From: Candidatus Bathyarchaeia archaeon
GTDB lineage: Archaea; Thermoproteota; Bathyarchaeia; 40CM-2-53-6
Reading direction: 5' to 3'
Length of the DNA: 64,000 nt
Assembly: GCA_050013255.1 (NCBI GenBank)
Contig: JBEKFP010000001.1
Location: 288,001-352,000, forward strand
A program made the translations under genes and the position numbers. Positions 4,679 to 14,470 of this stretch are shown piece by piece; position 1 is the stretch's first letter; every line of letters starts with the position of its first letter. The notes beneath the pieces were generated by a model. It saw only the letters and a list, made by a program, of their open reading frames with translations. It was not told the DNA's origin and made no database searches.

Positions 4679-4740
4679 ACAGACGTCACTGCACTAGCGT
4701 CTTGGCCAGTCTTTATTGTAGAGGAGTGCCGAACGCGGGT

Positions 4741-4845
4741 TGGCGCCCTTCGCCAGGAGAAGCCTAGGCTGCTCCTTTGGGCGGGATTCGAACCCGCGTC
4801 GACGACGTGACAGGCCGTCATCCTAGACCACTGAACGACCAGGGC
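4741..4845 (-). tRNA. tRNA-Asp(GTC) with an intron in the 3' acceptor strand (68/69)
   Basis: GCCCTGG...ACGGC-CTGTCAC-GTCGT. Removing 29 nt (4749-4777; BHB helix CGCC/GGCG, bulges CAA and AAG) restores CCAGGGC-G-CCA, 76 nt. Confidence 0.9.
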
Positions 4846-5071
4846 ATCGGCATCCCAGAAATCGCTGTGCCAGCTTAAAGCATTGCTACAATATACACTC
4901 CCGGAACAGAGAAGACGCCTACCTTACGCTTCTTCGCAAGGATGTGACGAGATACGGACTCATATTCGATTATGTTGCTAATCATTGTCGCGGCGCTGAT
5001 TCTTGTACCAGTCATCGTAGCCTACGCACATGTTCGTCAACGCCTGCTTGAAAGAATCTTTAAGAATAATT

Positions 5072-13906: not shown

Positions 13907-14470
13907 ATGGAGAACAACCCCAGCGCAGCACCTCAAACTCCCGCGCAAGTCCAAGAAAAACCACCGTTTACCCCTTGGATCGCGGTGTCCGGCCCGGGTT
14001 TGGTATACCTACCCTACAAATCTGAACTCATGGAGCTTAGGGACCGAGGATTCGGCGACCTCCGGAACGACAGGCTTGTCCTTTCTCCGTACGAATCATT
14101 CTACCTTCTAGAGAAACAGAAGATTCGAGTGTTTGCCAAGGATGCAAGCCGGGAGTTGGAGCTTCGAGACTTAGTCCAGAAGTATTCAGTTGGCAAACCC
14201 GAGATCTGGATCAAGTACTTGGTCTACCGTGACCTACGGGACCGTGGGTACATAGTCCGCGAGTCCACTAAAGCCTTCGACTTTGACATTTACGGAAAAG
14301 GGCCGCTGAGGCGTTTAATCTCAATCGTTTACGAAGGTGGCGAAGCGAGCCTTCAGAAATTAAGTAAACTGCTTCAATATTCTGACAAGGAGAAGAAGGA
14401 ATTGATACTAGCCGTTGTTGACAGGCGGACCGACATAGTGTACTATACGTTGAGTTCGTTGAATGTCTAG
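13907..14470 (+). CDS. endA: tRNA splicing endonuclease subunit, probably the structural (beta) subunit
   Basis: LSPYESFYL, YLVYRDLRDRGYIV and LILAVVD..DIVYY motifs; no His at the catalytic-His position. Confidence 0.82.
   Translation: MENNPSAAPQTPAQVQEKPPFTPWIAVSGPGLVYLPYKSELMELRDRGFGDLRNDRLVLSPYESFYLLEKQKIRVFAKDASRELELRDLVQKYSVGKPEIWIKYLVYRDLRDRGYIVRESTKAFDFDIYGKGPLRRLISIVYEGGEASLQKLSKLLQYSDKEKKELILAVVDRRTDIVYYTLSSLNV

What the first reader, a model, noticed from the sequence alone, without database searches (positions are those of the whole stretch)
4741..4845. Intron inside the 3' acceptor strand (68/69) of tRNA-Asp
Seen: after the T-arm the gene reads CCA, then a 29-nt insert, then GGGC-G-CCA. 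The insert forms a strict BHB: CC-CGCC-[CAA]-AGGAG...CTCCT-GGCG-[AAG]-GG. Known: archaeal non-canonical introns are mainly reported between the D-arm and T-loop. Inference: the acceptor stem cannot form until splicing, so splicing must precede RNase P/Z processing. Standard tools would call this gene truncated or pseudo.
Basis: partly seen in the sequence, partly recalled or inferred. Interest (0 to 1): 0.75.

Follow-up and report, generated by a model that had tools for sequence, protein, structure and literature searches.

The report
Acceptor-stem intron in only tRNA-Asp gene
The only aspartate tRNA gene found in this uncultured peat/soil archaeon (Bathyarchaeia) has a 29-base enzyme-spliced intron inside the last strand of its acceptor stem, and the RNA tail behind the gene appears to be needed to fold the precursor into the shape the splicing enzyme cuts.

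Summary
On the minus strand, tRNA-Asp(GUC) runs 4845-4778 (nt 1-68), then a 29-nt insert (4777-4749), then GGGC-G-CCA (4748-4741). The insert and the 3' T-stem strand form a strict bulge-helix-bulge (BHB) motif, and cutting it gives junction 68/69.

It is a working gene, not a scar:
- The same intron sits at the same site in 22/22 genomes of the genus and in four other families of the order. There are 18 different but always paired intron helices.
- The joined exons match the uninterrupted 3' part of tRNA-Asp genes of other archaea.
- I found no second Asp tRNA.
- The genome encodes a crenarchaeal-type two-subunit splicing endonuclease (one subunit in this window) and the ligase RtcB.

New here: right after CCA the trailer carries 7-11 nt complementary to the 5' T-arm strand. 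Folding predicts the BHB forms only with this trailer attached (P about 0.9 versus 0.08), so splicing should precede 3' trimming. Intron-less relatives, and a sister genus with a 53/54 intron instead, lack this complement.

There is no RNA evidence. Introns in the acceptor stem are mentioned in the literature, but I could not check whether 68/69 itself has been reported. This scan earlier noted similar flank "stand-ins" in this genome and in Asgard archaea.

The parts
4874..4880 (-). TATA-like box (CTTTAAG), centred about 31 nt upstream of tRNA nt 1; putative archaeal promoter
   Evidence: Read from the sequence; position inferred, not tested.
4778..4845 (-). Exon 1 of tRNA-Asp(GUC), nt 1-68: 5' acceptor strand, D arm, anticodon arm, T arm and the first three bases (CCA) of the 3' acceptor strand
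   Evidence: Nearly invariant in the 23 genomes of the genus, the window's own included.
4749..4777 (-). 29-nt BHB intron. Intron nt 2-6 and 19-23 form helix h'. Intron nt 24-27 (GGCG, 4754-4751) pair with tRNA nt 63-66 (4783-4780) as the central 4-bp helix. The first intron base and the last two lie in the two 3-nt bulges.
   Evidence: 18 distinct h' helices; all 5 h' pairs co-vary.
4741..4748 (-). Exon 2: GGGC (nt 69-72), discriminator G73 and the encoded CCA
   Evidence: The joined exons match the contiguous 3' part of tRNA-Asp genes of other archaea.
4732..4741 (-). Trailer stand-in: A76 plus ACCCGCGUU, complementary to nt 46-55 (4800-4791), the 5' strand of the T arm. It is predicted to open the T stem so that the BHB can form, and to hold the 8-nt exon 2 on the body.
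   Evidence: Absent from intron-less homologues and from the sister genus with a 53/54 intron. The function is inferred.
4791..4800 (-). Partner of the trailer: end of the variable region, the 5' T-stem strand and the first two T-loop bases (linear nt 46-55)
13907..14470 (+). EndA-family protein without the catalytic histidine: the likely structural (beta) subunit of the splicing endonuclease
   Evidence: The catalytic alpha subunit lies outside the window on contig C2.

Best explanation
This is the functional, and apparently only, tRNA-Asp(GUC) gene of a Bathyarchaeia archaeon. A 29-nt archaeal BHB intron interrupts it between nt 68 and 69, inside the 3' strand of the acceptor stem.

Proposed pathway:
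1. In the primary transcript, the trailer just after CCA pairs with the 5' strand of the T arm (about 10 bp).
2. This frees the 3' T-stem strand (nt 63-66) to pair with the 3' end of the intron. The result is a strict hBHBh' motif at the tip of one long rod.
3. The (alpha-beta)2 splicing endonuclease cuts both bulges.
4. The trailer helix keeps the 8-nt exon 2 attached while RtcB joins A68 to G69.
5. The T arm and acceptor stem then refold, and only then can RNase P and the 3'-end enzymes work.

Shown: the motif, its conservation and co-variation, the enzymes, and the link between the trailer complement and the intron. Inferred: actual excision, the role of the trailer, and the order of the steps.
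For: Anatomy.

Conservation:
- Full-length matches in 22/22 genomes of the genus, plus genomes of other families.
- 38 of 401 Bathyarchaeia genomes carry the intron form, all in the window's order: genus g1 22/22, g7 5/5, g9 3/4, g11 4/7, g4 2/2, g22 1/3.
- Exons are nearly invariant, while the intron loop and flanks vary.

Structure:
- 18 distinct h' helices, mean 6.2 bp against 0.67 bp in shuffles.
- 93.4% of cells paired against 39-54% in slid controls, and all 5 h' pairs change on both sides.

Product:
- The joined 3' part is the sequence found uninterrupted in tRNA-Asp genes of other archaea.
- The spliced RNA folds with a 7-bp acceptor stem, a T arm and an anticodon arm.

Uniqueness:
- About 40 other tRNA genes of the genome have a contiguous acceptor-N-CCA end.
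- No other GUC anticodon arm lies near tRNA features, and no second copy turns up by DNA search.

Enzymes:
- Catalytic EndA, closest to the Aeropyrum pernix alpha subunit 3p1z_B (E 1.5e-38), aligned without gaps across the lysine-bearing loop stretch.
- Structural EndA homologue in the window.
- RtcB.

Trailer:
- 7-11 nt complement to the T-arm 5' strand in every intron-bearing lineage, at different offsets and extents.
- Duplex energy is -11.7 to -22.6 kcal/mol. Intron-less Asp homologues give -4.7 to -10.6, and other tRNAs of this genome have a median near -8.6.
- The sister genus has near-identical exons but a 53/54 intron, and its trailer gives only -0.7 to -8.8.
- Predicted probability of the central BHB helix is 0.88-0.96 with the native trailer, against 0.08 when the RNA ends at CCA.
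- Across all variants of the genus the probability rises from 0.00-0.06 to 0.85-0.97.
Against: - No RNA data. The one metagenome scan found only intron-less genes of other organisms.
- In the strict register the outer helix h is only 2 bp. The minimum-energy fold prefers a 3-bp h with a 2-nt bulge.
- The central helix, h, and most of the trailer helix lie in invariant tRNA sequence, so they cannot show co-variation.
- The minimum-energy fold of the whole 116-nt region is not unusual against shuffles (z = -1.52).
- Outside the genus the trailer effect is uneven. It is clear in L025/L063 and L059 and weaker in L028 and L051. In L024, L030, L060 and L062 the T stem opens but the BHB helix stays at low probability. 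It is absent in most of the L026 group, whose trailer folds on itself.
- The genomes compared are relatives, so the statistics overstate independence.
- tRNAs with an intron inside the T loop were not covered by my scan for a second Asp gene.
Confidence: 0.88

Rival explanations
1. The intron is real and spliced, but the trailer complement plays no part in splicing. It could be a 3'-processing or termination signal, or a leftover copy of the T-arm 3' half. On this view the BHB is formed with protein help or transiently.
For: - In the L026 group the trailer forms its own hairpin and has no predicted effect on the BHB.
- In L028 and L059 the element looks like a near-copy of the T loop plus the 3' T-stem strand. 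Because TTCGAA is its own reverse complement, copy and complement cannot be told apart there.
- A few unrelated tRNAs of the genome reach similar duplex energies by chance: -19.0 and -15.3 kcal/mol.
Against: - The complement is present in all intron-bearing lineages. It is absent from the intron-less homologues and from the sister genus with a 53/54 intron.
- In L024 and L063 the complement extends into the variable region. The trailer base opposite the position before GAC is A where the tRNA has T, and G where it has C. That fits pairing, not a copy.
- Offsets differ (0, 1, 4, 5, 13, 16 nt) while complementarity is kept.
Confidence: 0.3
2. The locus is a dead or scarred tRNA gene, for example the remnant of an element that integrated into the tRNA 3' end. 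The cell's Asp tRNA would then come from elsewhere.
For: Integrases often target tRNA 3' ends. My scan for a second Asp gene does not cover genes with an intron inside the T loop.
Against: - Exons are conserved nearly base for base across the 23 genomes of the genus, while the intron loop and flanks drift.
- The insert keeps an exact BHB with compensatory changes.
- No second copy of the tRNA's 3' part exists in the genome.
- Neighbouring genes are housekeeping (an AMP-binding enzyme and a peroxiredoxin), with no integrase.
- No other GUC tRNA was found.
Confidence: 0.02
3. The intron is spliced, but end processing does not have to wait. RNase P, and perhaps the 3' enzymes, could act on a cloverleaf-like conformer in which the intron hairpin sticks out of the acceptor stem, with the RNA switching between the two folds.
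For: Without the trailer, the predicted fold keeps the T arm (P about 0.9) and part of an acceptor-like helix, with the intron as a side hairpin. In archaea generally, no fixed order of splicing and end maturation is known (background knowledge).
Against: If the trailer were removed first, the BHB would be predicted at P = 0.08, and the 8-nt exon 2 would be held by only 2-3 bp after cleavage. The conserved trailer complement argues that the trailer is still present at the time of splicing.
Confidence: 0.25

Closest known systems
Non-canonical BHB introns in multi-intron tRNA genes of Thermoproteales, Thaumarchaeota and Asgard archaea (reviews PMC4090602, PMC4033280; PMC8450103; PMC11291895)
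   Same: A short protein-spliced intron defined by two 3-nt bulges around a 4-bp helix. The host has an (alpha-beta)2-type endonuclease with broad specificity. BHB formation needs local unfolding of the tRNA.
   Different: Positions listed in the reviews run from 20/21 to 59/60, plus 3/4. Here the site is 68/69 in the 3' acceptor strand, only 8 nt from the end. The host is Bathyarchaeia. The BHB is predicted to depend on sequence outside the mature tRNA.
Intron at 3/4 in the 5' acceptor strand of some Thermoproteales tRNAs (Sugahara 2008, as cited in PMC4090602)
   Same: An intron inside the acceptor stem, so the stem cannot form before splicing.
   Different: It lies on the opposite strand and at the opposite end of the tRNA. 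I could not read the primary paper, so I do not know how that BHB is formed.
Split (trans-spliced) tRNAs of Nanoarchaeum equitans and Caldivirga, and permuted tRNAs of Cyanidioschyzon and Thermofilum (PMC4090602, PMC3218864, PMC3978253)
   Same: Leader or trailer sequences outside the mature tRNA pair up to build or support the BHB. In permuted tRNAs, splicing must come before end maturation.
   Different: Here the gene is colinear and a single transcript. The trailer pairs with an exon strand (the T-stem 5' strand) rather than with another flank.
tRNA-Asp of the sister genus in the same family (loci L079-L084)
   Same: Nearly identical exons and the same T arm and acceptor stem. Also one BHB intron that borrows a T-stem strand.
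   Different: The intron is at 53/54 and uses the 5' T-stem strand (CGCG with CGCG). There is no trailer complement. Two further genera of the family have introns elsewhere and a contiguous 3' end.

Membership tests
Archaeal BHB (endonuclease-spliced) tRNA intron | Two 3-nt bulges on opposite strands, separated by a 4-bp helix | tested here: met
   CGCC with GGCG, flanked by the bulges CA|A and AA|G. Kept in all 35 variants.
Archaeal BHB (endonuclease-spliced) tRNA intron | Flanking helices h and h' (the strict hBHBh' form) | tested here: met
   h' is 5 bp here and averages 6.2 bp, with all pairs co-varying. h is only 2 G-C pairs in the strict register, extended through an internal loop by the 10-bp trailer helix.
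Archaeal BHB (endonuclease-spliced) tRNA intron | Cutting after the second bulge base on each strand and joining the exons gives a canonical tRNA | tested here: met
   The product has a 7-bp acceptor stem, G73 and CCA. The same 3' sequence occurs uninterrupted in tRNA-Asp genes of other archaea.
Archaeal BHB (endonuclease-spliced) tRNA intron | The host encodes a splicing endonuclease able to cut non-canonical sites, and an RNA ligase | tested here: met
   Catalytic alpha subunit closest to crenarchaeal (alpha-beta)2 enzymes, a structural beta-like subunit, and RtcB. Activity was not tested.
Archaeal BHB (endonuclease-spliced) tRNA intron | The intron is removed in vivo | not testable with these tools
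   The metagenome scan for the joined junction found only intron-less genes of other organisms.
Integration scar / att-site remnant in a tRNA gene | A direct repeat of the tRNA 3' part, with an integrase or mobile element next to it | tested here: not met
   No second copy of the 3' part in the genome. Neighbours are an AMP-binding enzyme and a peroxiredoxin.
Split or permuted tRNA gene | Halves at separate loci, or the 3' half upstream of the 5' half | tested here: not met
   The exons are colinear and 29 nt apart.
Self-splicing group I/II intron in a tRNA gene | A ribozyme core of hundreds of nucleotides | tested here: not met
   The insert is 29 nt, and Rfam finds nothing but the tRNA here.

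The most novel reading that the evidence does not exclude
The 3' trailer acts as an obligatory cis-acting splicing helper. It stands in for the 3' T-stem strand, so it forces the precursor into the BHB fold and tethers the 8-nt last exon. This sets a fixed order: splice, refold, then trim both ends. Together with the leader and trailer stand-ins this scan noted at other acceptor-stem introns in this genome and in Asgard archaea, it would point to a general, undescribed rule: tRNA introns near the ends need helper sequence outside the mature tRNA.
Probability: 0.5. Interest if true: 0.65.

Novelty: new variant of a known kind. Interest (0 to 1): 0.55.

Why it matters
The gene is essential, because it is the only decoder found for the Asp codons, and it works only after an unusual splice 8 nt from its 3' end.

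If the trailer model holds, it shows how an intron can survive inside the acceptor stem, where two things stand in the way of splicing:
- the splice motif competes with a very stable T arm;
- the last exon is too short to stay bound on its own.

It would also give a rare case in which the order of tRNA processing steps is written into the sequence.

Practical point: ARAGORN and Rfam give this gene a wrong 3' end. Intron-aware annotation is needed for Bathyarchaeia before a tRNA is called missing or defective.

The turnover among sister genera (68/69, 53/54, or other sites in near-identical exons) is good material for studying how such introns are gained and lost.

Tried and rejected
- Literature check of position 68/69. 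The paper search cannot handle a slash: '68 69' found nothing, and a control search for '59 60' also fails on a review that prints 59/60. The primary catalogues (Sugahara 2007 and 2008, Marck and Grosjean 2003, Tocchini-Valentini 2011) are not held. The tRNAscan-SE 2.0 supplements list no positions. I therefore cannot say whether 68/69 itself has been reported.
- RNA evidence. The single metagenome scan for the joined junction returned 12 contigs, all uninterrupted tRNA genes of other organisms (11 tRNA-Asp, one of another isotype), with no spliced transcript.
- A second T-arm-like motif (TCGAAYCC) about 20 nt further down some trailers looked like a duplicated T arm. It is the conserved C-terminal coding end (GFDD-stop) of the convergent neighbouring gene, so I dropped it.
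- RNAalifold on the mixed alignment chose the ordinary T stem, because trailers with different offsets do not align. I scored the BHB-plus-trailer structure explicitly instead.
- Contiguous-complement length with G-U pairs over 41-nt trailers separated the groups poorly: background 5-8 nt, with a maximum of 10. Duplex energy over 26 nt separated them well.
- My scan for GUC anticodon arms carrying a 37/38 intron gave over a thousand chance hits. I replaced it with a scan restricted to real T-arm/CCA loci.

Full report
**1. What is there**

The tRNA lies on the minus strand.
- From 4845 down to 4778 it reads as a normal tRNA-Asp: acceptor strand GCCCUGG, a D arm with a G10-U25 pair, anticodon loop CUGUCAC, a 4-nt variable region, the T arm GCGGG/UUCGAAU/CCCGC, and then CCA.
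- A 29-nt insert follows (4777-4749), then GGGC, G73 and an encoded CCA (4748-4741).
- CCA plus GGGC is the exact complement of the 5' acceptor strand, so the break falls between nt 68 and 69.
- ARAGORN and Rfam both find the gene, but they run its 3' strand into the insert. Rfam scores it 43.4 bits and marks non-standard pairs in the acceptor stem.

**2. The splice motif**

- The 3' T-stem strand plus nt 66 (CGCC) pairs with GGCG near the end of the insert.
- On one side lies the bulge C67-A68-A. On the other strand lies the bulge A-A-G69.
- Beyond the bulges are AGGAG/CUCCU inside the insert and C61C62/G70G71 in the exons.
- This is the strict hBHBh' geometry. Cutting after the second bulge base on both strands gives exactly the 68/69 junction.
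- Because an A flanks both cuts, 67/68 would give the same product. The bulge geometry is what fixes 68/69.

**3. Organism and spread**

- The genome has 2.46 Mb, 3 contigs and 50% G+C.
- Contigs carrying the same locus are named Bathyarchaeia or Bathyarchaeota, from peat and soil projects.
- All 22 other genomes of the genus match the whole 116-nt region at 89-99% identity.
- In a sample of 401 Bathyarchaeia genomes, the intron form occurs in 38, all in the window's order, across five families.
- Exons are almost invariant. The intron loop and the flanks differ between species.

**4. Structure is conserved, not sequence**

- There are 35 distinct variants with 18 different h' helices, all paired at the predicted register. 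The mean is 6.2 bp, against 0.67 bp in shuffled inserts.
- On a 26-sequence alignment, the BHB-plus-trailer structure pairs in 93.4% of cells, against 39-54% when partners are slid by 1-3 columns. All five h' pairs change on both sides.
- The central helix and h never vary, because they sit in constrained tRNA sequence. They therefore neither support nor contradict the structure.

**5. It is the working gene**

- About 40 other tRNA genes of the genome have an uninterrupted acceptor strand, discriminator and CCA directly after the T arm. Only this one has an insert there.
- No other U-GUC-R anticodon arm lies near tRNA features, and the DNA search finds no second copy.
- tRNA genes with an intron inside the T loop escaped this scan, so 'only' means 'only one found'.
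- The joined 3' sequence occurs uninterrupted in tRNA-Asp genes of other archaea.
- The spliced RNA folds with a 7-bp acceptor stem.
- No integrase or repeat of the tRNA end is nearby.

**6. Enzymes**

- Two EndA homologues exist.
- The 190-aa protein on contig C2 is closest to the catalytic alpha subunits of the crenarchaeal (alpha-beta)2 enzymes (3p1z_B, E 1.5e-38). It keeps the Tyr/His/Lys context and aligns without gaps across the stretch that, from my memory of the A. pernix enzyme, holds the lysine-bearing loop tied to broad specificity.
- The 187-aa protein at 13907-14470 of the window lacks the catalytic histidine and looks like the structural subunit.
- RtcB is present.

**7. The trailer**

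- Directly after CCA comes ACCCGCGUU. Together with A76 it is complementary to linear nt 46-55, which cover the end of the variable region, the 5' T-stem strand and two T-loop bases.
- The minimum-energy fold of the precursor is one long rod: this 10-bp helix, an internal loop, then h, the bulges, H and h'.
- With the native 10-nt trailer, the central BHB helix has probability 0.88-0.96 and the T stem 0.00. If the RNA ends at CCA or G73, the values are 0.08-0.09 and 0.90-0.91.
- Two of three shuffled 10-nt trailers behave like no trailer.
- For every variant of the genus, the 30-nt trailer raises the BHB probability from 0.00-0.06 to 0.85-0.97. Shuffled trailers average 0.03-0.32.

**8. The trailer complement goes with the intron**

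- Every intron-bearing lineage has 7-11 complementary bases, but at offsets of 0, 1, 4, 5, 13 or 16 nt and with different extents.
- In L024 and L063 the complement reaches into the variable region, with A opposite T in one and G opposite C in the other. In L059 it reaches into the T loop.
- Duplex energies are -11.7 to -22.6 kcal/mol for intron-bearing genes. They are -4.7 to -10.6 for intron-less Asp homologues, and about -8.6 (median) for other tRNAs of this genome. The genomes are relatives, so the P value there overstates the case.
- The best control is the sister genus. Its exons are almost identical, but its intron is at 53/54 and borrows the 5' T-stem strand, and its trailer has no complement (-0.7 to -8.8).
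- Two further genera of the family have a contiguous 3' end and introns elsewhere.
- Outside the genus the folding effect is uneven, and in one family (the L026 group) the trailer folds on itself.

**9. Mechanism proposed (inference)**

- The T stem (five G-C pairs) would normally win over a 4+2-bp BHB.
- The trailer removes the competitor strand. After cleavage it also keeps the 8-nt last exon on the body until RtcB joins it.
- Refolding then creates the T arm and acceptor stem that RNase P and the 3'-end enzymes need.
The order relative to RNase P remains open.

**10. What is known**

- Reviews list non-canonical positions from 20/21 to 59/60, and, 4 an extreme case (PMC4090602).
- A 2025 paper says introns occur in the D arm, the T arm and the acceptor stem (PMC12397907).
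- tRNAscan-SE 2.0 extends candidates by 60 nt to catch introns near the ends (PMC8450103).
- A 2026 preprint on Asgard archaea notes 'few' in the acceptor stem.
- So the class is known but rare. I could not check 68/69 itself.
- In the papers I could read, helper pairing by flanks is described for split and permuted tRNAs, not for a colinear gene.
- Earlier notes of this scan describe similar stand-ins at other acceptor-stem introns in this genome and in Asgard archaea. I took the wording from them. I had noted the trailer pairing before reading them, and I tested it independently here.

**11. Verdict**

This is a real, conserved, almost certainly spliced intron at an unusual site: a new variant of a known kind. 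The trailer dependence is the part worth an experiment.

Noticed in passing
L079-L084 (sister genus of the same family; e.g. G138:C30:15783-16205): tRNA-Asp with near-identical exons carries its single T-arm intron at 53/54 instead of 68/69 (central helix CGCG with CGCG, h' GAUCAG with CUGAUC). Two other genera (L088, L090, L091) have a contiguous 3' end and apparent introns after nt 7, in the D loop and in the variable region. Intron turnover in one gene within one family is rapid.
   Followed up: partly
G000 contig C1:110968-113778 (outside the window): The RtcB ligase match is split into two Pfam pieces about 1.4 kb apart inside one 1039-aa open frame, which suggests an intein in RtcB.
   Followed up: no
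L043, L045, L052 (genome contigs): Three contigs that carry this Bathyarchaeia tRNA-Asp locus, identical to loci in Bathyarchaeia genomes, belong to MAGs labelled Acidiferrales, Acidoferrum and Methylomirabilota. They are probably mis-binned archaeal contigs.
   Followed up: no
G000 C3:126898, 134100 and 137326, and C1:1306697: Four near-identical tRNA 3' fragments (T arm GUGGG/CCCAC preceded by GUCCCACGA). Three of them lack a proper CCA end and cluster within 11 kb on contig C3. They look like repeated att-type remnants of integrated elements.
   Followed up: no
L026, L027, L051, L053, L061 (one family of the order): In this family the tRNA-Asp trailer forms its own 7-bp hairpin (UUUCGCG ... 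CGCGAAA) whose loop contains GCGGG. Only a weak 6-bp complement to the T-arm strand remains. It may be a different solution, or a terminator.
   Followed up: partly
window 13907-14470 (+): The structural EndA-like subunit gene lies in the same stretch (3.3-22.4 kb) that an earlier first-reader note of this scan describes as holding six intron-containing tRNA genes. I verified only the tRNA-Asp gene and this EndA homologue.
   Followed up: partly
G000 C3:28331 (+) and C1:25833 (-): Two other tRNAs have trailers with unusually strong predicted pairing to their own T-arm 5' strand (-19.0 and -15.3 kcal/mol), although their 3' acceptor strand is contiguous. This could be chance, or could relate to other introns in those genes.
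   Followed up: no
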